64,000 nucleotides of DNA, taken from positions 138,384,001 to 138,448,000 of the forward strand of contig CM059429.1 in assembly GCA_030390025.1 (NCBI GenBank), read 5' to 3'. The position numbers and the translations under genes are program-made. Of the stretch, positions 45,101-64,000 are shown piece by piece (position 1 is the stretch's first letter; each line of letters opens with the position of its first letter). The notes under the pieces are model-generated. The model saw nothing but the letters and a program-made list of their open reading frames with translations, ran no database searches and was not told the origin of the DNA. This stretch comes from Squalus acanthias (lineage: Eukaryota).

Positions 45101-48100
45101 CTGTACTCGGGCTCAAAAGTTCCTCACTTTCACCAATACCAGCTGATCCTAGCAGCAGGTGCGCCTTTTAAAATTTGTTTTGGGGATTTGGGTGGCACTA
45201 GAAAGGCCACATTATTGCTCATCCCTATTTTTCCTGAGAAGGTGGTGGTGGGACTTCTCCTGGAACTGCTGCAATCCTTGTGGCAGTGGTGCCAGGATAT
45301 TGATATTGAGTGAAGATTTAGGAGCAATGATACAAGTCCAAGTCAGGATGGTGTATCAATTGGAAGGGAACTTGGAGATGATGGTGTTTCCATCATCTCC
45401 AAGTTCCTGTCCTTCTCAATGACAGGAGGTGCTGTTGAAGTAACCTTGATGAATGTTGCAATGCATCCTGTGGGTTATACATACTGCAGCCATATTGTGC
45501 TGGTAGTGAACGGGGTGGATTTTGAGTCCAGCAATAAGGGGCAGCAATCAAGCGAACTGCTTTAACCTGGATAGTGTTGAGTATCTTGCTGTTGTTGCCA
45601 CACCCATACAGCAAGTTTATCATATTCCTGACTTGAGCTTTGTAAATGGTGAATAGACTTTGAGTTATGGGGATGCACTACTCATCACAGCAAATTGACT
45701 TGTGTTTGCCTACATTACAGGAGTGACTATAATCAAAGGTAATTAATTGGCTGTAAAGTGCTTTAGGACATCCTGAGGTCATGAAAGGTGCTATATAAAA
45801 TACTCTTTTCTCATTCAAATTCACTCACCAATGTTTTCCATGTTTGCCAATTTGATTGTGGTGGAATCAGTATCTGAATTAGACCTCAATGTATGTAACT
45901 ATTCCGCATTATCTTGTGCCCTGTCTTACTTTCCCACTTTCAGTAGTTTCTTAATGCACAAACAAATCGAATGTTGAGGCTGTATTTACCATTTTGTTGC
46001 ATGCAACTATTGTTGGTCAATTCTCTCTCAGTGTCATAATTTCTCAGTGGACCAGCATGCTGCGCGTGGTAGCAGGCCACTTGGATCAAATCGGCCTGAC
46101 CTATGTTACTCTGGACGGCTCTGTGACTCCTAAACGTCGTATGGATTTGGTGGAGGAATTTAACACTGACCCTAAAGGACCTCAGGTACCCGCTGGCTGC
46201 TCTTTTGGGTTTTCTTGTGGGAAAGGAACCACAGATCCAGAATACGAAGGGAGCTTTGTTTTATTGCCAATTATCTTCCCTGAAGGTGCTAATGGGTGAT
46301 CAGGTACAGTTGTTGGCATCCCTCTAGTACCTTAGAGTTGTGAACTTTGAGTGAGGTTAGGCTGGGCTTAACTTTGGTACGTACACCTTCCCCTTACCCC
46401 TTGGAAAATAGCCTTCTAACACTTGCAGTCTAACCTTGCATATGAAGAATGGATGTTTGGATGAGGTACCAGAACACTGCTGGTACCCATAGGACCAAAC
46501 CCCAGCATGAGTCACCATCTTTGAGAGGTGGAAAGAAAATTGGACAAAAAAAAATTCTATAGTGGTTTGCATGCAGTTGTTTATATATCAGGAATTTCAA
46601 CAATGGGGCCCATTACTAAAAATGTAATATAAGTTCAGTCTGATGACATGTTGGGAAATCTACTGATATAGTCAAATCTACTTGGTTAAATCACTGTTTG
46701 TATGCACAGTTTATTTAAATACGGGGGTCCTGTATTTAAACCTGTGTGGTATCAGTAATGTGTAGTTTCTAAGACTTGATTATCTTGGGCATGCTTCCTT
46801 TCTAAATGCTTTCTCTCTTCTCACAGGTCATGTTGGTCTCTCTGTGTGCTGGGGGTGTGGGTTTGAATCTCATTGGAGGCAACCACCTCTTCCTGTTAGA
46901 TATGCACTGGTAAGATTAAGGATCAGCAGTAATGCAGATAGTTACAGACTATATTAAAATGTGATATTGGAAGGAAAGACACCTATTCCTTGCTGGAATT
47001 TGCGTGTGGATAGTTTTACACTGTTGCTTATAAACAACTACCTGATTTCAAACATTTTAATTCTCAATGTATTAATTCCTATTAATACCACATCACTTCA
47101 AATTTGTAGCTGGCAATAATGGCATGATTTACAGAAGTTATTGCATGTAAGTGACCAAGTATTTGCATGTCTCACTTCAATCTCATTAGCATCATCAATT
47201 AATGCATTTCTTTAACATCTGCTTTTTAAAGATGGGACTTGAGGAGCTGAATGTTTCCCTCCTTCATAGTAACCATTCGGTTCTTGAATTATTGAGAAAA
47301 TTCTCCCTTTTTTATTTCATTCGTGCAATTAATTTTCCCCTCTCTAGATTCTTCTCTTTACTCCTAGTCCACTTGTGCCTGTTTCAAATACTTGGGTATG
47401 AAGGCAGATAAGTAACCTAGTTCCAGGCCTCAACCAATGCTGCTCCAATCACAAAAGAACCCTTTGTTGACTCTCTTGGGTTTATTTTAAATGTTTTTCC
47501 CTCACTGTTGGTAGTGAAGCCATCTCTGATTAGTGCCTGCTCCCCCTCCCTCTCCTGCTTCCCATTCCCAAAGCTCAGCTGAGATTGGGGAGTTCTCGGC
47601 CAGGGACCTGTGTCCTACCATTTCAGACCAGGCTAGCTCTAATTAACCAAATTCAGATCATCTTATTTGCATAACCGAGTCACCAATTTATATAACTTTT
47701 AATGTCTTGATAATGTGGATTATTTATGAAACCAACACTAATGGAACGGTGTATGCTGCTAATGTGTTTTATGCATCTTTTTGTCCAAACACCTTTGCAT
47801 TTTATGTGTCTTGTGGTAGCACCTGCATGATGTTTGCAGGAGTTGTTCACAAATTTGCTAGTTTTTTGAAAAAGATGTCTCGATAAATCTAAAACTGATA
47901 TGATATTAAAATTAATGGAGTCAACAAAATATATTGATTATTGAATTCCTTCATTAAATTTCCTTCTGTAACCGGTCAAACTCATGAATGCACCCAATTC
48001 TGTTTTCAGGAACCCAGCACTGGAGGAGCAGGCTTCTGATCGAATTTACCGGGTAGGACAGCGCAAGAATGTCACTGTGCACAGGTAACTAGAGATCCTA

Positions 48101-50722
48101 AATTCCCTTTCTGAAGGAGTGGAAATAAATAGGAAGGATAAATGAAAATCATTCATTTTAATTTTGCATAACATTGATGCATTTGAAAATGAAATTCAAT
48201 ATTAATTATGTTCAAGCATACAGCTGCAATGCATTTGAATGAACCACCTGTTGGTTCATGAATCTGTCCTATTGTATATGGCAAGCTGCTTCACAAATCA
48301 AGAAGAGACACACCTGGCTGCCACTTCCATGACTACTCCACACTTCTAAACTTTCTCCTTGAAGCAATTTCTCCTCAGTTTACCTGAGCTGCTACTGCTT
48401 CTACATTTACTGCTTAGAATTTAAACTTTAAAACCTGCATATATGCTTGTTGTGCAAAGTTATTTGCAAATATACTTTTTATATTCACTTTAAATTTAGA
48501 GTAGTGGGAGGAGAGTAACAGCCCGATAAATCAGGTGTGGGATGAAGAGTAACTGAGAGAGAGAATGGCAGCAGTAAGGACAGCAGGAACCTTGAGAATT
48601 CAGTTTGATACTCCAGTTACAATAAAAGCAGAGTTGTTTTAATGGGAGACTTTAATTTTCATATAGATTGGGAAGAGCAGAGTAGCTCAAGTCAGAAAGG
48701 TAGTGATTTTCTTTTGAGTACATCCAAGATTGTTTTCTGGTGCAATATATTCTAGAACCGACAAAAGGACTGGCCATACTAGATTTAGTAATGAGCCAGG
48801 CTTAGTTAATAATCTAATGGTAAGGGAACATTTATCTAACCGTGATCATAATATGATCGATGTTAGGTTTGAAAAGGAGAAACGTAATGCAGTTAAGATC
48901 CAGATTTTGGTAAGACTAACTTTAACGGGATAAGACAGAGACTGACGACAGCAAACTGGTCAAAACTGTTAGCGGGTAAAACTACAGATGAACAGTGGGA
49001 GGTGTTCAAAAAAGAATTTATCTTAATACAGGACCAATATATAAGGGGCAAGAGCTCTACTTACCAAATAAACCAGCCATGGTCGACAAAAGAGGTGAGA
49101 GAGAACATAAGACTAAAGGAAAGCGCATACAGAAGTGCAAAGAATAGAGTAGATCCAGGAGACTGGGAGAGATGCAAAGAACAGGAAAGGAAAACATAAA
49201 AAGAGAGTAAGAGTAACAAAAATCAATACAGAAAGAAACTTGCAAGGGATATCAAGATTAGCACAAAGATTTTGCAATTATATTAGAAGAAAAAGGGTAG
49301 TCAAGAGTAATGTGGGCCCTTCAAAATCAGATGCGGATAATATTGCAAATGAAAATGAGGAAATGGCAGACTTGTTAAGTAATTACTTTGTGTCATTATT
49401 CACAGTAGAGGAAGAGGATAATATACCTGACATTCCAGGGAAATTAATAATGAATCAAGGATTGGAACTCATTAAAGTAAACAAGAAAACAGCATTAGAA
49501 AAAATAATGGCGCTAAAGGGGTATGGGGAGAGAGCGGGAATACAGTATTGAGATAGAGGATCAGCCATGATCATATTGAATGGCGGAGCAGGCTTGAAGG
49601 GCTGAATGGCCTACTCCTGCTCCTATTTTTCTATGTTTCTAAAGACTGACAAATCCCCAGCACCTGATGGTTTCCACCCCAGGGTTTTAAAGGAAGTAGG
49701 TGAGGAAATTGCAGATGCTTTAACCATAATCTCCCAAAGCACTCTCGATTCAGGAATTGTCCCTTTAGATTGGAAAATTTCAAATGTAACTATTATTTAA
49801 GAAAGGTGTGTGAGAGAGAAACCAGGAAATTATAGACCTGCTAACATCAGTTGTGGGGAAGTTATTGGAATCTATAATTAAAGACCAAGTGACTGAGCAC
49901 TTGGAGAAATCTAAGCTGATTAGAGAGAGCCAACATGAATTTGTAAAGGGTAGGTCGTGTCTAACGAACCTCCTCAGATAATGAAGCAGTCCATGCACGC
50001 ATGCAGCAAGACCTGGACAACATTCAGGCTTGGGCTGAGAAGTGGCAAGTAACACTTGCGTCACACAAGTGCCAGGCAATGACTATCTCCAACAATCGAG
50101 AGTCTAACCACCGCCCCATGACATTCAACGGCATTACCCTCGCTGAATCCCCCACCATCAACATCCTGGAGGGTCACAATTGACCAGAAACTTAACTGGA
50201 CCAGCCGCATAAATAATGTGGCCACAAGAGCAGGTCAGGGTCCCAGGCCTTGTTGAAAAGGACAGAGTGTTTCAGGTTAGGTTCATAATCTGCAGTCCCT
50301 GAAAATACAGCATTCTATCTGGGTCAGAGTGTCCTTGAATCACTATCAATTTACACCAGTTTCAGATGGATCTGACTTTATTGCAGCTGAAGTTAGAACT
50401 TGTTGCTTTCTCCATCTTAACAAATCGTGAATAATACATTGCTGTCAAAATGCCTAATGCAGTGAAATTTTGTGGCAAATTAAATTTCACTATAAAATGT
50501 TATGCTGCAATCAGAAATAGTAATATTTTTTTAAACAAATGCATTGCTTTACTGAGGAAAATTGCTTTTCCCTCCAGGTTTGTTTGTGAGGGAACTGTTG
50601 AGGACAAAATCTTTGAACTTCAGGAGAAGAAAAAGGAACTAGCAAAGAAGGTGCTATCAGGAACGGGAGGATCCTTTACCAAGCTTACACTGGCTGATCT
50701 TCGAATTCTATTTGGTGTGTGA
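6123..50722 (+). CDS. TTF2: Transcription termination factor 2 (SNF2/SWI2 ATPase, N-terminal GRF-type zinc finger), whole gene span, 23 coding exons, 1214 aa
   Basis: The exons below join in phase with GT-AG introns to 3645 nt. Motifs: [68 protein letters not shown]-terminal [13 protein letters not shown], as in vertebrate TTF2. Confidence 0.97.
6449..6843. mobile_element. Family B palindromic Penelope-like insertion in TTF2 intron 1; hammerhead motif at 6705-6740
   Basis: Inverted arms (ACAGAAAACGCTGGAAAAACTCAGCAGGCCAGGCAGCATCC); 12-bp TSD GCTTTAGACTCG at 6437-6448 and 6844-6855; AGTT-CTGACGA-AAGGTC(TTC)GACT-GAAA-CG-T-T-AACT. Confidence 0.72.
7495..7715. mobile_element. Older family B palindromic element; hammerhead-like motif at 7556-7590 (- strand)
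   Basis: Inverted arms homologous to the 6449 element; reverse complement reads GTT-CTGATGA-AAGGTC-ATC-AACCT-GAAACATTAAC. Confidence 0.6.
8205..9172 (+). mobile_element. CR1 LINE 3' fragment
   Basis: [33 protein letters not shown]; typical CR1 3' UTR ending CCTATGTTC. Confidence 0.8.
8278..8568 (+). mobile_element. tRNA-derived SINE (HE1/V-SINE type) nested in a CR1 LINE
   Basis: A box (GTGGCATAGTGG), B box (GGATTCGAATC), V-domain-like GGGTTTCCTCCGGGTGCTCCGGTTTCCTCCCAC, GATTCTGT tail repeats; splits the CR1 WQMD|FNA codons. Confidence 0.75.
9379..9593. mobile_element. Palindromic Penelope-like pseudo-LTR insertion (family A) with hammerhead motif
   Basis: Long inverted arms (AAAAGTGAGAAGTCGCACAACACCAGG.. 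and its complement), 13-bp TSD CATTGTTAAAGAA at 9366-9378 and 9594-9606. Confidence 0.75.
9471..9507 (+). ncRNA. Minimal type I hammerhead ribozyme motif
   Basis: TCAC-CTGACGA-A-GGAGC(AGC)GCTCC-GAAA-GC-T-T-GTGA: helix I TCAC/GTGA, CUGANGA and GAAA cores, 5-bp helix II, palindromic mini helix III. Confidence 0.75.
10634..10745 (+). CDS. TTF2: TTF2 exon 2
   Basis: CAG acceptor; [22 protein letters not shown]; GTACGT donor. Confidence 0.93.
12592..12678 (+). CDS. TTF2: TTF2 exon 3
   Basis: [18 protein letters not shown]; AG/GT boundaries in phase. Confidence 0.92.
13370..13436 (+). CDS. TTF2: TTF2 exon 4
   Basis: [22 protein letters not shown]. Confidence 0.92.
14792..15874 (+). CDS. TTF2: TTF2 exon 5 (large low-complexity linker exon, 1083 nt)
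   Basis: Open frame with RNPFRV..WK and ending LTAQLNQKK; CAG acceptor, GTAATC donor. Confidence 0.93.
16331..18414 (-). mobile_element. Harbinger/PIF-like DNA transposon remnant with degenerate Myb/SANT-like ORF
   Basis: TIRs TGGCCGGAATTTT/AAAATTCCGGCCA; frameshifted [45 protein letters not shown] (~17940-18156); contains nested CR1 3' ends at ~17560-17860. Confidence 0.65.
19457..19583 (+). CDS. TTF2: TTF2 exon 6
   Basis: [22 protein letters not shown]. Confidence 0.93.
20438..20602 (+). CDS. TTF2: TTF2 exon 7
   Basis: Phase 1-1 exon [14 protein letters not shown] between TAG and GTAAAA; weakly conserved linker. Confidence 0.8.
23399..23556 (+). CDS. TTF2: TTF2 exon 8
   Basis: [26 protein letters not shown]. 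Confidence 0.93.
24683..24764 (+). CDS. TTF2: TTF2 exon 9
   Basis: [27 protein letters not shown]. Confidence 0.95.
24945..26075 (-). mobile_element. LINE (CR1/L2 clade) RT fragment
   Basis: [26 protein letters not shown]; [12 protein letters not shown]. Confidence 0.85.
26191..26304 (+). CDS. TTF2: TTF2 exon 10 (Walker A)
   Basis: [17 protein letters not shown]. Confidence 0.95.
27133..28265 (-). mobile_element. CR1 LINE RT fragment with internal deletion
   Basis: [31 protein letters not shown], joined directly to the 3' UTR. Confidence 0.9.
29077..29529 (+). mobile_element. Full-length tRNA-derived SINE (SacSINE1/Deu-SINE type) with L2-like tail
   Basis: GTGGCTCAGTGGG A box, GGTTCAAGTCC B box, ends GCTATATAAATGCAAGTCTTTCTTT; degenerate copies or tails at ~7050, 10290, 11000, 13620, 21150, 26480, 28670 and 45700. 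Confidence 0.75.
29693..29843 (+). CDS. TTF2: TTF2 exon 11
   Basis: [18 protein letters not shown]. Confidence 0.95.
30599..30704 (+). CDS. TTF2: TTF2 exon 12
   Basis: [19 protein letters not shown]. Confidence 0.95.
31150..31349 (+). CDS. TTF2: TTF2 exon 13 (DEAH box)
   Basis: [34 protein letters not shown]. Confidence 0.96.
31653..31806 (+). CDS. TTF2: TTF2 exon 14
   Basis: [25 protein letters not shown]. Confidence 0.95.
33118..33806. mobile_element. Non-autonomous TIR element
   Basis: Termini CCCAGATTTTG/CAAAATCTGGCCC; CpG-richer than its flanks. Confidence 0.45.
34173..34264 (+). CDS. TTF2: TTF2 exon 15
   Basis: [24 protein letters not shown]. Confidence 0.94.
36128..36216 (+). CDS. 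TTF2: TTF2 exon 16
   Basis: [18 protein letters not shown]. Confidence 0.93.
36339..37805 (+). mobile_element. Related Harbinger-like element (internally deleted)
   Basis: Termini GGCCGCAAATTTAA/TTAAAATTGAGCCC; same Myb/SANT-like segment ([13 protein letters not shown]) at ~36580-36680. Confidence 0.6.
37900..38825 (-). mobile_element. CR1 LINE 3' fragment
   Basis: [26 protein letters not shown]. Confidence 0.85.
39748..40540. mobile_element. Non-autonomous TIR element (MITE-like, GC-rich)
   Basis: Termini GGGGCTGAATTTTAA/TTAAAATTCCCCCC resembling the Harbinger-like TIRs. Confidence 0.5.
40723..40865 (+). CDS. TTF2: TTF2 exon 17
   Basis: [30 protein letters not shown]. Confidence 0.95.
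41477..41647 (+). CDS. TTF2: TTF2 exon 18
   Basis: [25 protein letters not shown]. Confidence 0.95.
42250..43230 (-). mobile_element. Degenerate L2 LINE
   Basis: [11 protein letters not shown]; [18 protein letters not shown]. Confidence 0.7.
43453..43511 (+). CDS. TTF2: TTF2 exon 19
   Basis: [19 protein letters not shown]. Confidence 0.92.
46032..46185 (+). CDS. TTF2: TTF2 exon 20
   Basis: [31 protein letters not shown]. Confidence 0.95.
46827..46909 (+). CDS. TTF2: TTF2 exon 21
   Basis: [27 protein letters not shown]. Confidence 0.96.
48010..48084 (+). CDS. TTF2: TTF2 exon 22
   Basis: [24 protein letters not shown]. Confidence 0.96.
48630..50240 (+). mobile_element. Degenerate CR1 ORF2 with nested CR1 tail and fused second LINE fragment
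   Basis: [23 protein letters not shown]; nested tail at 49519-49638 flanked by CTAAAG; switches at ~49970 to the family seen at 25000-26000. Confidence 0.75.
50578..50722 (+). CDS. TTF2: TTF2 exon 23 (last coding exon, TGA stop)
   Basis: [32 protein letters not shown]; candidate ATTAAA poly(A) signal at 51265-51270. Confidence 0.96.
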
Positions 50723-52256: not shown

Positions 52257-53599
52257 ATACAATGGGTTAATGCAATGTCCCTGAGGTGTGAGTTTGAATC
52301 CAGCTCAGATTGCAATGGAAATCCCCTTTGCTGATGTAAGGACTCTTTGTGAAATGAGCTTAGGCAGACTTGACACAATGGCTCGTGATTGTGGGTGCAT
52401 TGCCCAAAACTGCCAACCATTCAGCACAAATTGACACAAAATTTTCAGTCTTGTTGTATAGCTGGGGAAGCTAGGTTCAAGGCACATTGTTGGAGCAAAG
52501 CAGAGGGAAGTTTATTTTACATCTGGGAATGTTTCAGGGTGACATGGGTAGCTAAAATAAGGAAAAGTGTTCTAATCCACAGAACTAGCCCTCGTTCATC
52601 ATATAAGCATACAAGCAATTGCCAAAATGTAACTTTAATTAAAAATAATTGTGATTTGATCCAACCTCCATTCTGTGGACCTTCATGTGAGTAATGGGAG
52701 CTTGATTTATAGTCTATTTAAAAATGAAATGTGTCATTGTGCTTCATTGCCTTTGGCTACAGGGAATGAAACGGACAGGTAGATATTTTTTTTAAATCTC
52801 TAGTTTATAACTGTGATAAAACCTTAAAATTCATTATTCAAGTATAATCCAGAGAAATTCCAACTGTTGAAAGTCTTTCATTTGTTTAAACTAGTGCTTT
52901 TCAAACTGTTCTGTTTGGCAAATCTTGCAAACACTCCACAGGACCATCAGTCCTGACTTACAAAAAAGGTATCAGCTACCTAAAGGAAACAGATGCTGTC
53001 ACGGTAGAAAAGATTTTTATTCGTATACAGCAAAATAAACAGAAGTCAACAACTAGAGAGAGCCAATGAGCTTGTGGGATCCCAGTTTAAAAACATGGTT
53101 TCAGCATCAGGTAATAGGTTGAATTAGTTGGAAGTGCAGATTTTTTTTTTGCTGAAAGATTTGCTCTAATAGCTGGTATTATATAATCTGTTGAGATGTT
53201 CTCCATTATATTGATTCCATATTACGTGCATTTCCTGCAGGTTGACAGTTATCAGTGTTTACAGACAAAAATTATTTAATCTGTTTGCAGTGTATACAGA
53301 TTCTAAATAAACCTATTGGAATAGCTCTATTATTTAATGGATTGCAAAGGGAAGCCTAAAGCGTATTCAATTTTTATGAAGTAAGGAAATAATCATTATA
53401 AACAATTAGCATCAAAACAGGAACTAGTAACAAAAAGTCCATTCGTGTCATTATTTATTCAGATCTCCCAAAACTCTACCTTCCAGAAGGACAGGAGCTG
53501 CAATGGCACGAGAGCTTTTGAGAAATGAAATGGGACATATTAGAATCATGCAAATGTTTATTACACAAAACCATGCTAAATAATTTTATTACTTACCAT

Positions 53600-53697
53600 T
53601 TACATAGGAATTTGAACACAGATCACTGCCGTCAGTAATAAACTCATTCCCACAAAGAAGATGAGGTAGCGTATGATTACTGGGACGGAACGGCCAT
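53600..53697 (-). CDS. IgSF copy 1 transmembrane exon (DGRSVPVIIRYLIFFVGMSLLLTAVICVQIPM*)
   Basis: CAG acceptor, phase-1 in frame with C1, ~22 hydrophobic residues containing Arg, TAA three bases before a G|GTAAGT donor. Not in the ORF track because it is short. Confidence 0.75.
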
Positions 53698-56600
53698 CTG
53701 TAACTAGAGTACATAGGGTGAGGTCACCCTTCTGTTATAATAGCTTGACAACCTGTTAATGCACTCCTAAGAAATTATTTTGCTCCTTTATTTTTTAACT
53801 GAGGCATTTTAACTGGGTTAACACTTTATCAAAATAACAAATTCAGGTCTGTCATAGATACTTTCAGTGGCTTCAGTCTCCCCCCTAAGTGATCTGAGCA
53901 TCTCCTAATGGAGTTGACTCATGCTACCCTATATCTACTTGTATAATAGCATAACCCAGGATGTAACAATAGTATCCGTTCGTGATCTGAACTTGATATT
54001 TCTTTTATGGGTGCTTCTTTAATCCTAAAGCGGATCAAGCAAACACTTGGTGTGAGACAAGGCCAGATACAAATCGTAAAGCTGCTTTATGACATAGTAA
54101 GGAGAGCAACCGATATGTTTTGATTCACTTAATTAAATCAGTTCAACTTATCTTCACGTATCAAAAGGCTGCCTTACTGACTTTTTAAACACAATGCCTT
54201 CTCATCCTCTAGCATTTCTAAACTCTGTCAGCGAAAGCTCTTGCAGCTTTCTGTTTAAAAACCTGACCGACTGCCAGTGTCTCTGTCTCTGCTTTTATCT
54301 CCCTTTGTTCAGAGATCAAAAATGGTCAAATAGTTTCAATGCGACACACTCCAACAGAGATGATTAGACATCGAACAGGACACTAATTTGCAGGTCTTCA
54401 GCATCTCAATCATCAACCAGTCAATCTGACTGACTGTGTATGATTTACAGCTCCGAAGAATCGGATATAGGAAGATGGAAAAACTTAAAATACTGGTCCA
54501 AAAAATCATTTAAACAGATTTATATTTTTATACTATAAATTACATTAATCTGACCATTCTGTATTAACCAAAATCCTGTGATTCAGCATATTACTGCACA
54601 TCATTATACTGAAACAGGCATTTGAAAAGTTCATAATTTTTGTCTTTGTAATTTATGTCTTATAGATTAACAGCATATGTCAATGTGTTGTTTGAGTTTG
54701 TAGATACCAATAGCACTGTGCAGATAAAGTTGTGACTTTAAATGGAGAAACAGTTGTTCTCCCTGTACATGGGCCCTAAATCTTAAAAAAAATAAAGGGT
54801 CTGTATGGTTACCCATTAATACAATTGTAATCCCCAGCTCTAAATGATGTTTAGAATGATGTTTTTCAACTTAAATTTAATTAACATTTGTGTCTAAAAA
54901 CTATTACATTAATATTCACATTTTAATTAGATTAAAATTAGAATGTCATTTTACGTTGTATTCTAAATAGACTTACAGGTAGCACTGGTAGTATATGAGG
55001 TGACCGGGTTAAACATTAATTATTATCTGGGAGGACTTTTATGATTTTTGATTGATTGGATATTATGCAAGTATTACTTGGAACTGATCTTACTAGAAAT
55101 GCTACAATTGTCCTTTTTACAGAATATGTAAATCACAGCAGTAATATTTTATGAATGCAATTGGTTAAGAGCAGTTAGATGCAAAGGAAGACAGTGCACA
55201 CGGATTGGAGTGATTTGTTCTTTTCTGGCTACAATAAGTAAATAAACTAGGACATAATTTTTGACTATAAATGCTCTCACTGTTATGATTAGAGCAAAGC
55301 AATAGAAAATGTCCATCAAACGGTATGTTTATCTCTCGTTAGGGGTCATTTAAAATGCCCTGTTCCACGCTGTACTTTAATATTGATACATAGTGAAGTA
55401 TGTATCAAACACCACACACACATGGCTTATTAAAATAACGCTAGCCCTACACTTAGAATTCAGACGGTAAAACTTGGGACATTTCACAAATATGCTGTGT
55501 TTAGCGATACAATTTCATCTTTTCATAGATCCAGTCAAATACTTCGGAGTGCAAATGTTATCTAGATATTTCTGATGAAGATCGACCTGAAATACATTTT
55601 AACAAAGTCACAGTACATTTCTGATTTTTTTAAATGCAGATTAGTTTTAAACAAGTTTGTCGTCTGTACTGACTTGTATCTCTTTTATATAAAAAGCTTG
55701 CGTATCCGCTCGCTAATGGGAATCGCCGTTAAAAACCTATTACCTTCCTACAGACACCATTATTGTATAGACAACTCGACCTGATCAACTCTCATGGCAG
55801 TAGCCCTTCCTTGAATCAAACTGTAGCACACAACGACTTGTTTATGTCTAATAAAGTGTGTGTATCAATTTTACCGTCTGTGCGTCATCCATGCCTTTGT
55901 TACCTCTAGACTTGACTATTCCAACGCACTCCTGGCTGGCCTCCTACATTCTACCCTACGTAAACTTGAGGTCATCTAAAACTCGGCTGCCCGTGCCCTA
56001 ACTCGCACCAAGTCCCGTTCACCCATCACCCCTGTGCTCACTGACCTACACTGGCTCCCAGTTAAACAACGCCTCGATTTCAAAATTTTTATCCTTGTTT
56101 TCAAATCCCTCCATGGCCTCGCCCCTCCCTATCTCTGTAATCTCCTCCAGCCCCACAACCCCGAGATACCTGCGCTCCTCTAATTCTGCCCTCTTGAGCA
56201 TCCCTGATTATAATTGCTCAACCATCGGTGACCATGCCTTCTGTTCCCTAGGCCCAAAGCTCTGGAATTCCCTGCCTAAATCTCTCCTCCTCTCTACCTC
56301 TCTTTCCTCCTTTAAGACGATCCTTAAAACCTACCTCTTTAACCAAGCTTTTGGTCACCTGCCCTAATTTCTCCTTATGTGGCTTGGTGTTAAATTGTTT
56401 GTCTTGTAACACTCCTGTGAGGCGCCTTGGGACGTTTTACTATGTTAAAGGCGCTATAGAAATACAAGTTGTTGGTGTTGCCTGACTCCAATACTTACTA
56501 TTGTGCCATTTCCATTTATGCATAAAACAACTTCTGGCATTCCACTGGTTGGATGTGGAGTAACTGGGAGCAGCTTTATTCCCTTTGTCAACAACTTACC

Positions 56601-58556
56601 TCCGCTGTCACCGAAACTTTTCCTCACTGACCCTTTCAGTGTAACGTGTTGAACCTGACAGGTGACGGCGGTTCCCGGGTCCCAGAGAGTGTCTGTAATC
56701 CGCAGCCGGGAGCTCAGGTTGAAGGTGCCGTCACTGTTTACTGTCAGGGAGTCCGGTTCTATTTGATAGGAGACATCTCCCGCTACAATCCAAGAAATGT
56801 TCAGACCTCTCGGGAAAAATCCCGCCGCCACACAAGTCAGAGACTCAATCCCAACAACTTCATTCTCGGGATCCGCAGAGAGATAGACTTCAGGTTTCGC
56901 TAAATAAACATTAAAATATCACAAGTTATATCAAAGCAAATATATAGAGAGCAACTGTAGATTAAACTCGTGCATATATGATACTAAATGGGAAATTATA
57001 TGATTTGATTAGATTATGTCTCAATATACAAATCACAAGATACCTATAATAAAATATAACACATGTACCCGAATGAAATACGAGCCAGAATAATATCCCG
57101 TGACTTTACAATAAGTTTCGTTCGCTTTGTTTTTCTTTGGACCAATAGCAAGAAAATTAAATGAAGTGACTATGCTTATTTCACAAAATCAGTGTCGCTA
57201 TTTGCAATTCGCTTGTTATAGAAATAATATCCCGCTGTTAGAATAGAATCGGACAGCACAGAAGGAGGCCATCCGCCCATCGTGCCTGTGCCGGCTCTTT
57301 GAAAGGGCTGTCCAATTAGTCCCGCTCCCCTGTTCTTTCCCCATGGCATTGCAATGTTTTTTCTTTTTCAAGTATTTATCCAGTATTGGTATCAGCATTC
57401 TATAATTTTGTCTTTTGGATGTTTTTCTTCAAACCAAGTGTTTTTTAAACTATATGAAAGTGTCTGCTGTTTAATGGATATTGTGGAATTAAAGTTAAAC
57501 GCTGGTGTATTCAGTCCAGTCCCCAGTGCACAGAGTATGTCAGTCCCAGATTAGATATGTGTGTGGAGCGAGTTCTGATTCCTTTGCCCCAATACATTGA
57601 ACTATTTCAGTTTTGATGCGGAGATGCCGGTGTTGAACTGAGGTGGACAAAAGTGAGAAGTCGCACAACACCAGGTTATAGTCCAACAGTTTTATTTGAA
57701 ATCACAAGCTTTCGGAGCGCTGCTCTTTCGTCACTTCACCTGACAAAGGAGCAGCCGTTCCGAAAGCTTGTGATTTCAAATAAAACTGTTGGACTATAAC
57801 CTGGTGTTGTGCGACTTCTCACTTTTATTTCAGTTTTGGTTCATCTAATTACCTTGGATGTTCAGTTCTGTTCCCTCTCCTGTAAATTCTTTCCAGGGCC
57901 GAGGCTCCTCTCTAAGAACCAGGCAGTGGTAAGTGTCGGAATCGTCCACAATCACCTCCCGGATGATAAGCGAGCCCTCAGATAGAGACACACGAGAGCT
58001 TTTATTGAGGGCATTCCTAGTTTTGTTGCCTCTGATGCCAGGATTGTCTCTTGCCCTAAACCAATAATATCTCACCGAATCCAGCCGCTCCTCTCCGGGT
58101 AACAGGGTGCAATTGATCCGAGCTGTCTGTCCTCTCAGGAGGGACAGAGCTAAAGGAGACTGGATCACTTTCAGACCGACAGCAGGCCCTGGGACATAAA
58201 ATGACAACAAGTAGGAACATGACATTCAAATTATCTGAGTCCAACTAGAATAACTGTCACGATAGCAAAATACTGCAGATGCTGGAAATCCGAAATAACA
58301 ACAGAAAACGCTGGAAAAACTCAGCAGGCCAGGCAGCATCCGTAGAGAGAGAAAGAGAGTTGACGTTTCAGGTCGATGAAAGGTCATCGACCTGAAACGT
58401 CAACTCTCTTTCTCTCTCTACGGATGCTGCCTGGCCTGCTGAGTTTTTCCAGCGTTTTCTGTTGTTATTTAGAATAACTGTCAACTGGGGTAAGAGTAAA
58501 TGCTTACCTAAGACAAGGAGCCAGAGTTTGAGAACAATGTTTCTAAATGGAGCCAT
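53600..58556 (-). CDS. Non-rearranging VJ-C1-TM IgSF receptor gene, copy 1 (PRARP/NCR3/SIRP-like), 4 coding exons, 260 aa
   Basis: Leader, V, C1 and TM exons all join with phase-1 GT-AG introns (49+336+300+98 = 783 nt). Confidence 0.85.
55885..56480 (+). mobile_element. L2 LINE 3' end in the C1-TM intron
   Basis: HAFVTSRLDYSNALLAGL..LTDLHWLPVKQRLDFKI..GPKLWNSLP..FKTILKTYLF. Confidence 0.85.
56600..56899 (-). CDS. IgSF copy 1 C1-set exon
   Basis: AKPEVYL..LTCVAAGFFPRGLNISW..NSDGTFNLSSRLRI..W....VTCQVQHVTL; C1-set hallmarks (GFxP, NxDGTF, CxVxH). Confidence 0.93.
57616..57825. mobile_element. Family A palindromic Penelope-like insertion in the V-C1 intron (copy at ~63310-63519)
   Basis: Inverted arms; TSD TATTTCAGTTTTG at 57603-57615 and 57826-57838; hammerhead core mutated (CTGACAA). 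Confidence 0.75.
57853..58188 (-). CDS. IgSF copy 1 V-set exon with in-exon J-like G strand
   Basis: VIQSP..ARINC..YYWFR..GSLIIREVIVDDSDTYHC..EFTGEGTELNIQ; canonical Cys/Trp/D-x-x-x-Y-x-C and GxGT motifs. Confidence 0.93.
58260..58469. mobile_element. Family B palindromic insertion in the leader-V intron of IgSF copy 1 only
   Basis: Near-perfect hairpin; 14-bp TSD TAGAATAACTGTCA at 58246-58259 and 58470-58483; empty site visible in copy 2 (~63940-63953). Confidence 0.9.
58508..58556 (-). CDS. IgSF copy 1 leader exon (MAPFRNIVLKLWLLVL-G)
   Basis: ATG, hydrophobic signal peptide, G|GTAAGC phase-1 donor. Confidence 0.85.
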
Positions 58557-60002
58557 ATTGCTGAAGAAAGCACCGAGTCACCGGTTGGTTAGACCTGTTG
58601 GCTGGTCTAAAGAATATTAAGATCGCTGGGAGATTATTGTGGTTGTAGCGCACAGTGCGTCACATCACACCGGCTGCTGGTTACCTGCACCTCAGGGGCC
58701 GGTGCCCAGGGGTCCCAGTAAAGCCCACCCTTCAACTGCTGGATTAGTTTCATTTAAGCATAGCATATTGTGATATGATTTACTTTATTATCAATGCAGT
58801 GTGTAAACATTCTGGGTCTATTTCTTCCTGGATTTTACTACATGTTTGTGTTTTAATGGATGGGGGTATTGTTGGGGTGTGGAGGGCCCCCATGTTTTTG
58901 ATGGCCATGGCCCCAAGAATTCTTACTCTGGCTCTGTATTCAGTCTCCTTCAGCTTTATCGCCCTCTGTCAGACCAACAGCAGGCACTGTTAAATTAAAA
59001 TTACAAGTGAATAAAGCTAAGGGAAGCTGAAAACTGCACAGAACTGCAGTAAATAGTTTTTTTTCAAATGAAAATGAAAGCTGACCAAAGGCAATGGAGT
59101 AGAATTGAAGAATCTCGGTCGCTAGAAATTCAAATGCTGACCAAGTTGTTGATCGGAGGCAGTCAACTTGAAATTGAAGTTTACTAAAGTGATCAAGTAC
59201 ATCACCTCACAACACTGCAACCTGTTTCTAAAAACACGCCAAGCAGTTCAGTGTAATTTTGTTAAATGCAGGAATAGAATATTTTTAATTTTAGATGAAC
59301 AATCATTTACTTAAGTAGGTGAGAAAGCTACTTTAATTATTTTTATTCATGCTCGGGATGTGGGCATCACTGGCAAGGCTGGTATTTCTAGTCCGTGGGA
59401 CAACTTTCCCAATTTTGGCACAAGTCCCCAGATGTTAGCGAGGAGGAATTTGCAGGGTCAACTGGGCTGGATGTGCCGTTGTTGTGTTCGAAACGGATGC
59501 CTAGGTCGATGCCGGATGGTCCGTCAGGTTTTATTCCTCTACGTGTTTGTCGCAGTTCAATACAACGGAATGGCTTGCTAGGCCATTTCAGAGGGCAATT
59601 AAGAGTCAGCCACATTGCGGTTGGTCTGGAGTCACATATAGGCTAGATTGGGTAAGGACGGCAGGTTTCCTTCCCTGATTGACGTTAGTGAAAAATTTTC
59701 TTCGTAAAGCAATTTTTTTTTTTTAATTACCATTTCTGATTGCAGCATAACCCTTTGAACCATGAGGTGGTGGCACAGTGGTATACAGTCGGCAAGGAGT
59801 GGCCCTGGGAGTCCTCAACATTGACTCTGGACTCCATAAAATCTAATGGCAGCAGGTCAAACATGGGCAAGGAAACCTCCTGCTGATTACCACCTACCGC
59901 CCTGACTCAGCTGATGAATCTGTACTCCTCCATGTTGAACACCACTTGGAAGAAGCACTGAGGCAAGGGCACAGAATATACTTCAATGTCCATTGACTCC
60001 AT

Positions 60003-61695
60003 GGCCACGATTTCCCCTACTTGGGTGGGTCCGTGGTGAGCCCCGGCCTCGCTGCTGGCTCCAGCCCGCTGTCCATAATGATTTTCCCCTGATTGGGCTT
60101 GTTGAACCCATCCAGCGCATTTGCCGGCCAATTGAAGGAATTTGATGACGCGTCATCAGCCGGTTTCCTTAAAGAGACCATGAGCAAATTTATTTTGACA
60201 GTTGTGCTGTCTGTGTTTTACAGCATTGAGGTGCTGCAAGCACTGACCAGCACTGCACAGAGGTGCACAGCTGCACCCAGGCTCTCCCACAGCATGCAGG
60301 GAGGTTCTCTTCCCTTCCAATGGGCGGAAGAGACCGCCCCAGGAGACCAACGCAGCCTGGTTGCACATTCCACAGGAGGACACAAGCAGGGATGTCGTCA
60401 GGAGGACCAGGCTACAGTGGCGCAAACCTTTCAATGATCTCAGTAGATTACGAAACGTTACTGCAAAGCCACACTCAACCTCATCCTGCTGTGCCACTCA
60501 TCACACCCCCATCACTCTGCCTTCCCTACCCTACTCCTGCACATCCTTACTCACACCAACTTACCTTGCACCTCCACCCATCCCTCTCTTATTTACATTA
60601 TTACTTCCCCATCTCACTAGCCACCCCTCACACTCGCCCACATCCTAGTCCAATCAAACCAACTAACAACATACAAGGGTAGGCACTTGGGTGTTTTATG
60701 CAATGTTCATGTAAAGTTTCTATTAATGTGGTGTCATTGAAAGCTTTATTTTCAGCAATTTGCATTCTTGGACAAATCTGTGTGCACCTTTGGAAGTGGC
60801 TTAGTGAATTGCAGTGAATGGTGAGACATAACGGTAATCCCTGCAATGGTGATGAGTGTGAAAGGAATGGCTTGGTCATTGTAGGGATGCTTTATGGTGT
60901 TGGTGTGGGGTGGTGCCAACCTGGCACATCATGTGGCAGCCATATGGGTGTACAGCGTAAAGTGAAGTAAATCTGGCTATGGTGAGGCCATCCCTGGCCT
61001 CCCGGGCAGCAATGTGGTCGGGTGCTGATGCCCTGTGTCCTGTGCAGCATCAGTTGATTGCGGAGAAGGTTGGTGGTGCTGCTGGTGTGCCTGGTGATGT
61101 TGGTGTTGGGGCTGATCGTGGTGGGATTCAGAGCACCAAGGTGAGGTAGTTTCAAGGGCACTGATGCTGATGTAATAGATGGCAGGTGAACTTGAAATGA
61201 CCGAAGCGATCTGTTAATGTTGAAAGAGGTTGTTTCAATGAGGTGACACTGGATAGAGAGTTTACTCCAAACACTTGCAACCTACATCAATCTGGCTTCC
61301 AAATGCAGTAAGCAACAGCTTCTGAACTTGGAAAGTGAACAGCTGTGAGATGGGAGCTTTTATAGCACATTTGCAGCTGCCAAGTAATGAGATGATTCCA
61401 CGGCCATTCAACTCCAGCCCTGCTTACCTGACGTGATCCCCGAGCAGCGAGAGCACCGTGGGCAACCTCGTAAAATGTAAAGGTGTGCTTAAATACTTCT
61501 TAATGTGTTGTTAACAAGGTCATAATGACCTGAATTACCTCCCCCGTTGCTGCGTGTCAGGTCTGTTCAGTGCTGACAGACCCGACATCTGGGAAAGGTG
61601 CGTGGCAGCGGGTTGACACCGGGGCCCCGACACGCTGTTGAAAAAAAACATTTTCCCACCTGACTCGCCACTGATCGCGCCCACTGACCACCCAA
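60003..61695 (+). mobile_element. Related Harbinger-like element, right terminus truncated where the L2 fragment begins
   Basis: Inverted homolog of 16331-18414 ([20 protein letters not shown]); the last ~12 nt of the TIR are missing at 61695. Confidence 0.6.
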
Positions 61696-62177
61696 ACTCG
61701 CACCAAGTCCCATTCACCCATCTCCCCTGTGCTCGCTGACCTACATTGGCTCCCAGTTAATCAGCGCCTCGATTTCAAAATTCTCATCCTTCTTTTCAAA
61801 TCCCTCCATGTCCTCGCCCCTCCCTATCTCTGTAATCTCCTTCAGCCCCACAACCCACCAAGATATCTGCGCTCCTCTAATTCTGCCCTCTTGAGCATCC
61901 CTGATTATAATTGCTCAACCATCGGTGACCATGCCTTCTGTTCCCTAGGCCCTAAGCTCTGGAATTCCCTGCCTAAATCTCTCCTCCTCTCTACCTCTCT
62001 TTCCTTCTTTAAGACGATCCTTAAAACCTACCTCTTTAACCAAGCTTTTGGTCACCTGCCCTAATTTCTCCTTATGTGGCTTGGTGTTAAATTGTTTGTC
62101 TTGTAACACTCCTGTGAGGCGCCTTGGGACGTTTTACTATGTTAAAGGCGCTATAGAAATACAAGTTGTTGGTGTTG
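61696..62177 (+). mobile_element. L2 LINE 3' end (apparently chimeric) at the duplication breakpoint
   Basis: ORF 61729-62064 LHWLPVNQRLDFKIL..; 5' part diverged from 56001, 3' part near-identical. Confidence 0.85.
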
Positions 62178-62296
62178 CCTGACTCCAATACTTACTATTG
62201 TGCCATTTCCATTTATGCATAAAACAACTTCTGGCATTCCACTGGTTGGATGTGGAGTAACTGGGAGCAGCTTTATTCCCTTTGTCAACAACTTAC

Positions 62297-62596
62297 CTCC
62301 GCTGTCACCGAAACTTTTCCTCACTGACCCTTTCAGTGTAACGTGTTGAACCTGACAGGTGACGGCGGTTCCCGGGTCCCAGTGAGTGTCTGTAATCCGC
62401 AGCCGGGAGCTCAGGTAGAAGGTGCCGTCACTGTTTCCTGTCAGGGAGTCCGGTTCTATTTGATAGGAGACATCTCCCGCTACAATCCAAGAAATGTTCA
62501 GACCTCTCGGGAAAAATCCCGCCGCCACACAAGTCAGAGACTGAATCCCAACAACTTCATTCTCGGGATTCGCAGAGAGATAGACTTCAGGTTTCG
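62297..62596 (-). CDS. IgSF copy 2 C1-set exon
   Basis: 295/300 identical to the copy 1 C1 exon; splice sites intact. Confidence 0.9.
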
Positions 62597-63546
62597 CTAA
62601 ATAAACATTAAAATATCACAAGTTATATCAAAGCAAATATATAGAGAGCAACTGTAGATTAAACTCGTGCATATATGATACTAAATGGGAAATTATATGA
62701 TTTGATTAGATTGTCTCAATATACAAATCACAAGATACCTATAATAAAATATAACACATGTACCCGAATGAAATACGAGCCAGAATAATATCCCGTGACT
62801 TTACAATAAGTTTCGTTCGCTTTGTTTTTCTTTGGACCAATAGCAAGAAAATTAAATGAAGTGACTATGCTTATTTCACAAAATCAGTGTCGCTATTTGC
62901 AATTCGCTTGTTATAGAAATAATATCCCGCTGTTAGAATAGAATCGGACAGCACAGAAGGAGGCCATCGGCCCATCGTGCCTGTGCCGGCTCTTTGAAAG
63001 GGCTGTCCAATTAGTCCCGCTCCCCTGTTCTTTCCTCATGGCATTGCAATGATTTTCCTTTTCAAGTATTTATCCAGTATTGGTATCAGCATTCTATAAT
63101 TTTGTCTTTTGGATGTTTTTCTTCAAACCAAGTGTTTTTTAAACTATATGAAAGTGTCTGCTGTTTAATGGATATTGTGGAATTAAAGTTAAACGCTGGT
63201 GTATTCAGTCCAGTCCCCAGTGCACAGAGTATGTCAGTCCCAGATTAGATATGTGTGTGGAGCGAGTTCTGATTCCTTTGCCCCAATACATTGAACTATT
63301 TCAGTTTTGATGCGGAGATGCCGGTGTTGAACTGAGGTGGACAAAAGTGAGAAGTCGCACAACACCAGGTTATAGTCCAACAGTTTTATTTGAAATCACA
63401 AGCTTTCGGAGCGCTGCTCCTTCGTCACTTCATCTGACAAAGGAGCAGCCGTTCCGAAAGCTTGTGATTTCAAATAAAACTGTTGGACTATAACCTGGTG
63501 TTGTGCGACTTCTCACTTTTATTTCAGTTTTGGTTCATCTAATTAC

Positions 63547-63882
63547 CTTGGATGTTCAGTTCTGTTCCCTCTCCTGTAAATTCTTTCCAGGGCCGAGGCT
63601 CCTCTCTAAGAACCAGGCAGTGGTAAGTGTCGGAATCGTCCACAATCACCTCCCGGATGATAAGCGAGCCCTCAGATACAGACACACGAGAGCTTTTATT
63701 GAGGACATTCCTAGTTTTGTTGCCTCTGATGCCAGGATTGTCTCTTGTCCTAAACCAATAATATCTCACCGAATCCAGCCGCTCCTCTCCGGGTAACAGG
63801 GTGCAATTGATCCGAGCTGTCTGTCCTCTCAGGAGGGACAGAGCTAAAGGAGACTGGATCACTTTCAGACCGACAGCAGGCC
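63547..63882 (-). CDS. IgSF copy 2 VJ exon
   Basis: 333/336 identical to the copy 1 V exon; splice sites intact. Confidence 0.9.
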
Positions 63883-63977
63883 CTGGGACATAAAATTACA
63901 ACAAGTAGGAACATGACATTCAAATTATCTGAGTCCAACTAGAATAACTGTCAACTGGGGTAAGAGTGAATGCTTAC

Positions 63978-64000
63978 CTAAGACAAGGAGCCAGAGTTTG
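63978..64000 (-). CDS. IgSF copy 2 leader exon (3' part; runs off the window)
   Basis: ..KLWLLVL-G|GTAAGC, identical to the copy 1 leader end. Confidence 0.8.

What the first reader, a model, noticed from the sequence alone, without database searches (positions are those of the whole stretch)
53600..64000. Second L-VJ-C1 cassette has no TM exon: shared-TM cassette array, 4-domain form, or soluble decoy
Seen: copy 2 has intact V and C1 exons and splice sites, but the duplication ends ~600 bp past its C1 exon. I found no TM-exon homolog in 58560-61700, which is mostly transposon DNA. All introns are phase 1, so the copy 2 C1 donor could splice in frame to the single TM exon at 53697 (alternative ectodomain cassettes sharing one TM), or to the copy 1 V exon (V-C1-V-C1-TM), or stay unspliced. 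Inference: a way to diversify a non-rearranging receptor by cassette duplication; more cassettes may lie beyond the window.
Basis: partly seen in the sequence, partly recalled or inferred. Interest (0 to 1): 0.75.

Follow-up and report, generated by a model that had tools for sequence, protein, structure and literature searches.

The report
Anchor-less copy of shark immune receptor
A shark gene for an antibody-shaped, likely activating cell-surface receptor has a near-identical second copy of its outer part with no membrane anchor, likely a by-product of a misaligned crossover between two repeats rather than a system of swappable receptor heads.

Summary
Copy 2 (VJ 63882-63547, C1 62596-62297, leader cut by the window end) is 98.4% identical to copy 1, all introns are phase 1, and the window has one TM exon only. 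Copy 1 is a 260-aa L-VJ-C1 receptor with a TM arginine and no tail, next to TTF2. Relatives carry it paired with an ITIM/ITSM form whose ectodomain is 95-100% identical within two species: an unnamed paired receptor. Copy 2's breakpoint is a hybrid repeat (8.0% divergence, then 0.84%; p=1.6e-8), the mark of crossover between two LINE-like copies, by duplication or by deletion of a paralogue's TM. The array reading is weak: the best-scoring acceptor downstream of copy 2 lies 4 nt before copy 1's ATG and gives a stop after 17 residues, so neither the shared-TM nor the 4-domain form is the expected product. Six of the eight 'diagnostic' SNP alleles of copy 2 are majority alleles in another animal. 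Depth shows a multi-copy cassette (1.9-3.6x) but cannot tell two from three. Verdict: likely ordinary paired-receptor turnover; the family is the more interesting part.

The parts
10633..50719 (+). TTF2 (context; convergent neighbour, 22 tblastn pieces covering residues 10-1214)
53597..53697 (-). The only TM exon; Arg near the outer end of the helix; stop at 53602-53600, no cytoplasmic tail; a GT donor follows 3 nt after the stop
   Evidence: 85% identical over 26 aa to the Heterodontus short form
55885..56470 (+). Repeat A: 5'-truncated 3' end of a very high-copy LINE-like element in the C1-TM intron (LINE label from recalled motif, no classifier run)
56600..56899 (-). Copy 1 C1 exon (300 nt, phase 1/1)
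57853..58188 (-). Copy 1 VJ exon (336 nt, phase 1/1), J-like GEGT motif in the same exon
58260..58469 (.). Palindromic insertion present only in copy 1, with a 14-nt target-site duplication (58246-58259, 58470-58483)
58508..58560 (-). Copy 1 leader exon (ATG at 58556) with a strong acceptor-like AG 4 nt before the ATG
60003..61693 (.). Old DNA-transposon-like element between the copies; about 14 nt of the terminal repeat seen in the copy at 16347 are missing at the junction with the hybrid repeat
61691..62167 (+). Hybrid repeat at the breakpoint: first 176 nt from an independent copy (B), the rest shared with repeat A; switch between about 61867 and 61923
62297..62596 (-). Copy 2 C1 exon; 5 amino-acid changes, N60Y removes a conserved N-glycosylation sequon
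63547..63882 (-). Copy 2 VJ exon; 3 amino-acid changes
63978..64000 (-). 3' 23 nt of copy 2's leader exon, cut by the window end

Best explanation
Copy 2 is a TM-less duplicate of the L-VJ-C1 part of a likely activating paired receptor, likely made by one recent unequal crossover between two same-direction LINE-like repeats, and predicted to give mostly non-productive RNA. Shown: the two cassettes, the single TM exon, the hybrid repeat, the Arg-TM and the ITIM/ITSM sister form in relatives. Inferred: repeat A (C1-TM intron) of one allele recombined with repeat B (3.1 kb upstream of the ATG) of the other, copying C1, VJ, leader and upstream DNA but not the TM. Inferred: a run-on transcript from copy 2 would splice its C1 donor to the acceptor before copy 1's ATG, add 17 residues and stop, which nonsense-mediated decay should remove; any escape would be a short secreted V-C1. 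Copy 1 itself would signal through an ITAM adaptor bound by the TM arginine, as a counterweight to the inhibitory sister (inferred from LILRA-type receptors).
For: Divergence steps from 14/174 to 18/2137 inside the repeat (p=1.6e-8; against the rest of the same repeat 2/301, p=3e-5). Left of the switch copy 2 has the two extra bases that another window copy of the repeat also has and A lacks; right of it both copies share letters that differ from the repeat family's majority (61923, 61931, 61943, 56320, 56341, 56397). Copy 1/copy 2 divergence (0.84%) is within the range between the window and other animals in the single-copy TM intron (5/1368, 7/1372, 14/1062). The 58560 acceptor scores 9.6, above V1 (9.2), C1 (6.7) and TM (5.7), and gives a premature stop. 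The family turns over its cassettes often: 3 TM-less or broken automated models (P0004, P0022, P0025), C1 tandem duplicates 91-97% identical in 4 batoid species, and a V-C1-C1 ectodomain on a short-form TM in Hemitrygon. In human LILR the activating gene varies in copy number, with unequal crossover proposed (PMC3894450, passages).
Against: Whole-unit duplication predicts 2x depth upstream of the ATG; two other animals show 1.14, 1.35 and 1.62x at 58834-59240 while the cassette is 1.9-3.6x, so the duplication is absent or heterozygous there, or copy 2 has its own upstream DNA (rival 1). The splice scores come from a crude matrix built on 21 TTF2 acceptors that my own heuristic picked, some probably wrongly. 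Copy 2's exons and splice sites are intact, as a functional copy's would be. Sequence beyond 64000 was not seen and no long read was available.
Confidence: 0.45

Rival explanations
1. Same crossover, opposite geometry: copy 2 is the ectodomain of an upstream paralogue (the inhibitory sister or a second activating gene) whose TM and tail exons were deleted by recombination between its own copy of repeat A and repeat B.
For: In S1 and S2 the multi-copy stretch covers C1, VJ, leader and the intron just after C1 (about 1.8-3.6x at 56524-56534) but falls to 1.1-1.6x beyond about 58677, so another cassette shares the intron after C1 and not the upstream DNA. Copy 1/copy 2 identity (V 97%, C1 95%) matches that of short/long pairs in Heterodontus (98, 95) and Pristis (99, 100). 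No long-form TM or tail is in the window. Hemitrygon P0015 joins a long-form-type ectodomain to a short-form TM, which fits a tandem layout.
Against: Needs the paralogue in tandem on the same strand and carrying repeat A; neither was seen. Introns are 99.3% identical over about 1.5 kb. In LILR the inhibitory genes kept constant copy number (PMC3894450, passages).
Confidence: 0.25
2. One reading: copy 2 is expressed and kept, as an alternative ectodomain on the shared TM, as a V-C1-V-C1-TM receptor, or as a secreted decoy.
For: All three forms are in frame; read-through of the C1 donor is open for 48 codons with no TM-like stretch. Majority contigs with copy-2 V letters and without the insertion run through an unchanged ATG to 58676 (collapsed contigs, not phased). 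Automated models in Heptranchias and Heterodontus include TM-skipped isoforms of the long form (P0001, P0003). LILRA3 is a soluble member of a paired family (PMC3533184, PMC3894450, passages).
Against: The leader, V1 and C1 exons downstream all have acceptors, and the first of them breaks the frame. No V-C1-V-C1 protein among the family members read. The read-through frame is identical in copy 1, so it is no adaptation of copy 2. Amino-acid changes are not in excess, and one change private to copy 2 removes a sequon kept in 20 of the 21 other C1 rows aligned.
Confidence: 0.15
3. Assembly artefact: two haplotypes of one gene laid in tandem, or a misjoin through the repeat.
For: Divergence between the copies is at allele level, the insertion looks like a presence/absence polymorphism, the junction lies in a very high-copy repeat, and against the upstream stretch the cassette depth is 1.1-2.5x, which an activating plus an inhibitory gene alone could give.
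Against: The window has no N and the joint is base-exact with a homologous switch inside a 480-bp repeat, too short to mislead a long-read overlap (inference; the assembly method is unknown). Against the TM intron the cassette is 2.3-3.4x in S1.
Confidence: 0.15

Closest known systems
PRARP (Fu et al. 2019, J Immunol 202:1992; title seen in a reference list; content recalled) and the VJC1 genes of Ohta et al. 2019 (not held; recalled)
   Same: Non-rearranging gene with V and J in one exon followed by a C1 exon; the long form has ITIM/ITSM-like motifs.
   Different: Orthology not shown: no hit was named PRARP, and neither paper could be read. The window gene has an Arg-TM and no tail; an activating/inhibitory pair with homogenised ectodomains beside TTF2 was not found in the papers searched.
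LILRA/LILRB paired receptors, with LILRA6 copy-number variation and soluble LILRA3 (PMC3894450, PMC3533184; passages)
   Same: Short-tailed Arg-TM form beside an ITIM form with near-identical ectodomain; unequal crossover; TM-less member.
   Different: LILR ectodomains are not VJ-C1 (own knowledge); no homology claimed. LILRA3 is a known soluble protein, whereas copy 2 has no terminal exon and no shown product.
SIRP family (SIRPalpha/SIRPbeta1)
   Same: Database auto-labels and Atlas features (0.96) point to SIRP; V plus C1 ectodomain; tyrosine-motif and short-tail forms; PDB profile hit to 2wng at E 3.8e-31.
   Different: One C1, not two (the batoid second C1 is a recent 91-97% duplicate); TM Arg, where SIRPbeta1 uses Lys (recalled) with DAP12 (PMC3533184); Ig and UrIg2 chains score as high or higher in the same search.
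UrIg / UrIg2 (PMC12227049, passages)
   Same: Elasmobranch non-rearranging VJ-C1 gene; adjacent-exon duplications homogenised by gene conversion; top PDB hit of the C1 exon (9dmx).
   Different: UrIg has 3 and UrIg2 9-11 C1 domains and they map to the MHC or the Ig/TCR complex; this gene has one C1 and lies by TTF2.
Clustered protocadherin / UGT1A arrays (recalled)
   Same: Repeated 5' units upstream of one shared 3' part.
   Different: Their variable units are first exons without acceptors; here each downstream exon has one, and only two units are seen.

Membership tests
Non-rearranging VJ-C1 receptors (PRARP/VJC1 class) | V and J in one germline exon | tested here: met
   336-nt exon, Pfam V-set 37-39 bits, ends in a GEGT-containing G strand before the donor
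Non-rearranging VJ-C1 receptors (PRARP/VJC1 class) | C1-set domain after V | tested here: met
   Pfam C1-set 56-58 bits, cut-off 21
Non-rearranging VJ-C1 receptors (PRARP/VJC1 class) | No recombination signal sequences | tested here: met
   No exact nonamer in 53000-64000; exact heptamers only at 54714, 58651, 59774, none at a V exon end (exact consensus only)
PRARP proper | Orthology and synteny with chicken PRARP1/2 | not testable with these tools
   No hit named PRARP (10 of 150 representatives named); source papers not held
Paired activating/inhibitory receptors | Short-tailed form with a charged TM residue | tested here: met
   Arg in the window TM and in 5 of 6 short-form TMs of relatives (P0015 has His)
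Paired activating/inhibitory receptors | Sister gene with ITIM/ITSM tail | tested here: inconclusive
   13 of 13 long elasmobranch forms carry such motifs; both forms in 3 species; none in this window, genome not held
Paired activating/inhibitory receptors | Near-identical ectodomains within a species | tested here: met
   Heterodontus V 98/C1 95%, Pristis 99/100%, against 71-72/59-61% between those species; weaker in Mobula hypostoma, 82/86%
Paired activating/inhibitory receptors | Association with an ITAM adaptor | not testable with these tools
   Inferred from the TM Arg only
SIRP | V-C1-C1 ectodomain | tested here: not met
   One C1 in the window gene and in shark relatives; batoid C1-C1 is a recent duplicate
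SIRP | TM lysine in the activating form (recalled) | tested here: not met
   Arg near the outer end, no Lys in the TM exon
UrIg/UrIg2 | Three or more C1 domains; MHC or Ig/TCR-complex linkage | tested here: not met
   One C1; neighbour is TTF2
Shared-constant-exon arrays (protocadherin/UGT1A type) | Intervening variable units lack splice acceptors (recalled) | tested here: not met
   Leader, V1 and C1 of copy 1 all have AG acceptors scoring 9.6, 9.2, 6.7
Shared-constant-exon arrays (protocadherin/UGT1A type) | Transcripts joining each unit to the constant exon | not testable with these tools
   No run with exon cover was served

The most novel reading that the evidence does not exclude
Sharks diversify a germline-fixed, antigen-receptor-shaped paired receptor by repeat-driven shuffling of whole L-VJ-C1 cassettes, and copy 2 is a working product of this: a second head with its own promoter that is secreted as a decoy or spliced to the shared arginine TM, or the freed ectodomain of the inhibitory gene in a natural tail-deletion allele.
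Probability: 0.13. Interest if true: 0.72.

Novelty: new member of a known kind. Interest (0 to 1): 0.4.

Why it matters
The TM-less copy is most likely the ordinary churn seen at paired-receptor loci, though its breakpoint is unusually easy to read. The host gene matters more. It is a VJ-C1 receptor of antigen-receptor shape that comes in Arg-TM and ITIM/ITSM forms with homogenised ectodomains across sharks and rays, lies on the TTF2 chromosome in 8 of 10 species that could be compared, and has tail-bearing relatives in sturgeon, paddlefish, a caecilian and a frog. Databases mislabel it as SIRP or Ig light chain. Homogenised pairs often point to a pathogen ligand (own knowledge), which makes a ligand search a reasonable project. 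It may already be one of the VJC1 loci of Fu 2019 or Ohta 2019, which I could not read.

Tried and rejected
Expression: no RNA holder was listed for 53400-63300. Four runs guessed to be RNA (X19, X20, X21, X23) were laid; they cover repeats and some intron pieces at depth 2-6 but the C1 bins not at all. This is no evidence either way. Whole genome: none held, so nothing beyond 64000 and no search for the inhibitory gene. Breakpoint in other animals: the DNA runs were laid on 54400-59240 only, so the joint at 61691 was not tested; contigs break in that repeat anyway. Depth as copy count: rejected as decisive, because the single-copy reference is 32% GC against 25-54% for the test stretches, the two runs of one sample differ, and X5 was read to about 55%. 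Positive selection on copy 2: not significant. Transposon inserted into repeat A as the cause of the break: rejected, no trace of the TM intron in 58531-61700. Intronic poly(A) signal 20 nt after each C1 donor (62277, 56580): lies before the read-through stop, so it would give a stop-less RNA; not pursued. Literature: searches found no paper describing a TTF2-linked paired VJ-C1 receptor; the supplement of PMC10751288 has no TTF2, PRARP, VJC1 or CD101; Fu 2019, Ohta 2019 and their supplements were not seen and may bear on novelty. Earlier scan notes hold nothing on this locus. Trees left out the Mobula birostris frameshifted C1, the chimaera fragment and duplicate isoforms. No structure or complex prediction was run.
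Full report
What is there. The window is cartilaginous-fish DNA: the V exon's relatives are shark and ray proteins at 57-82% identity and the neighbouring gene is TTF2, 94% to Pristiophorus over one exon, with 22 pieces from 10633 to 50719 on the plus strand. Facing it on the minus strand is copy 1: leader 58556-58508, VJ 58188-57853, C1 56899-56600, TM 53697-53597. Spliced in silico it gives 260 residues and stops inside the TM exon, the length of the short forms in Heterodontus (261) and Pristis (260). Copy 2 has VJ 63882-63547, C1 62596-62297 and 23 nt of leader. The duplicated stretch is 98.4% identical; copy 1 alone has a 210-nt palindromic insertion with a 14-nt target-site duplication. 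Profiles of both TM types find only the one TM exon in the whole window.

The family. Relatives come in two forms. The long form (about 350-480 aa) has an uncharged TM and a tail; 13 of 13 checked carry ITIM- or ITSM-like motifs. The short form (260-270 aa) has a different TM with an arginine near its outer end in 5 of 6 cases. Both forms were found in three species. Their ectodomains are 98/95% identical (V/C1) in Heterodontus and 99/100% in Pristis, against 71-72/59-61% for the same form between those two species, and they pair by species in both trees; Mobula hypostoma is looser (82/86%). That is concerted evolution of a paired receptor. By the LILR precedent (Arg pairs with FcRgamma; PMC3533184 and PMC3894450, passages) copy 1 is the likely activating member; this is inference. 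Receptor and TTF2 share a contig length in 8 of 10 species where both were listed; the two misses are small scaffolds; this shows the same chromosome, not adjacency. A profile search found 2340 proteins at E up to 0.001, mostly generic Ig; among 10 that I named, V-C1 or C1 proteins with a similar TM and tyrosine motifs come from sturgeon, paddlefish, a caecilian and a frog.

How copy 2 arose. Its homology to copy 1 ends inside a very high-copy LINE-like fragment. The first 174 aligned bases differ at 14 positions, the other 2137 at 18 (p=1.6e-8), and the rest of the same repeat at 2 of 301 (p=3e-5). Left of the switch each copy has its own variants; right of it they share letters that differ from the family majority seen in read contigs. 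So the repeat at 61691-62167 is a hybrid of an independent copy B and of copy A, with the crossover between about 61867 and 61923. Two geometries give this. An unequal crossover between A and an upstream B duplicates C1, VJ, leader and 3.1 kb of upstream DNA without the TM. A crossover between B and a copy of A in an upstream paralogue deletes that paralogue's TM and tail. The sequence beyond 64000 decides, and it was not available.

What other animals show. Three DNA runs from two samples were laid on 54400-59240; both differ from the window in the TM intron. Against the TM-intron contig, depth is 2.7/3.4/3.6x for C1, 2.8/3.0/2.5x for V-leader, 2.3/2.7/1.9x for the V-C1 intron and 1.14/1.35/1.62x for 58834-59240. 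The cassette is multi-copy, but an inhibitory partner alone predicts 2x, and contig depth is no true copy number, so two and three cannot be told apart. The low upstream figure argues against a fixed whole-unit duplication and helps the deletion rival. Majority contigs carry the copy-2 letter at 6 of 8 exon sites in S1 and 5 of 8 in S2 (40 of 44 difference rows shown); in S1 they lack the insertion and continue through an unchanged ATG to about 58650-58676. They are collapsed, so this only suggests that copy 2 has a start codon. Only 62417 and 62570 look private to copy 2.

What copy 2 would make. Shared-TM, V-C1-V-C1-TM and V-C1-C1-TM forms are all in frame. But scoring all 269 AG sites between the C1(2) donor and the copy 1 leader donor with a matrix from 21 TTF2 acceptors ranks first the site 4 nt before copy 1's ATG (9.6; V1 9.2, C1 6.7, TM 5.7). 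With the leader's donor 53 nt on, it would define an internal exon. That splice adds 17 residues and stops at the exon's last base, with junctions 336 and 636 nt further on, a likely target of nonsense-mediated decay. Other cryptic acceptors in the transposon DNA also close within 4-38 codons (top 15 listed). The matrix is crude and no transcript was seen, so this is a prediction. Unspliced read-through gives 48 more codons, not TM-like, the same in both copies. Protocadherin-type arrays work because intervening units lack acceptors (recalled); here they have them.

Known relatives. It works like an LILRA-type activating partner built on an antigen-receptor-like VJ-C1 frame. It meets the structural tests of the non-rearranging VJ-C1 class, fails SIRP (one C1, Arg) and UrIg/UrIg2 (domain number, linkage; PMC12227049 passages), and cannot be tested against PRARP proper. 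PMC10751288 and PMC11599192 (passages) name PRARP and VJ-C1 genes only in passing.

Verdict. A real, well-described cassette; most likely a recent repeat-mediated by-product at a paired-receptor locus (duplication 0.45, deleted paralogue 0.25), with a working shared-TM, four-domain or decoy product at 0.15 and an assembly artefact at 0.15. Interest 0.4, mostly for the unnamed family.

Noticed in passing
window 53597-53610 (-): The TM exon ends in Pro-Met-stop where relatives end in a basic residue (Heterodontus, Scyliorhinus Lys; Pristis Arg); looks like a small insertion, leaving copy 1 without a basic residue after the TM.
   Followed up: partly
P0015 (Hemitrygon akajei model): A V-C1-C1 ectodomain of the long-form type sits on a short-form TM with His in place of Arg: a hybrid gene or a chimeric gene model.
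   Followed up: partly
P0016, P0147, P0148 (Mobula, Hypanus): Long form has gained a second C1 (91-92% identical to the first), giving a SIRPalpha-like V-C1-C1-TM-tyrosine-tail layout, likely by convergence.
   Followed up: partly
P0001, P0003 (Heptranchias, Heterodontus models): Isoforms of the long form that skip the TM exon in frame, which would be soluble.
   Followed up: no
   Followed up: no
window 58560-58700 (-): GC-rich stretch with a donor at 58685 and the acceptor at 58560: possible non-coding first exon and 124-nt intron; multi-copy depth ends near 58677.
   Followed up: partly
window 16347-18359 and 60003-61693: Old element with 12-nt terminal inverted repeats, with further pieces at 36366-37256.
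   Followed up: partly
window 53200-55460: Low-depth contigs from runs guessed to be RNA cover DNA in and around the receptor's TM intron, 3' of TTF2; may be TTF2 run-on or DNA.
   Followed up: no
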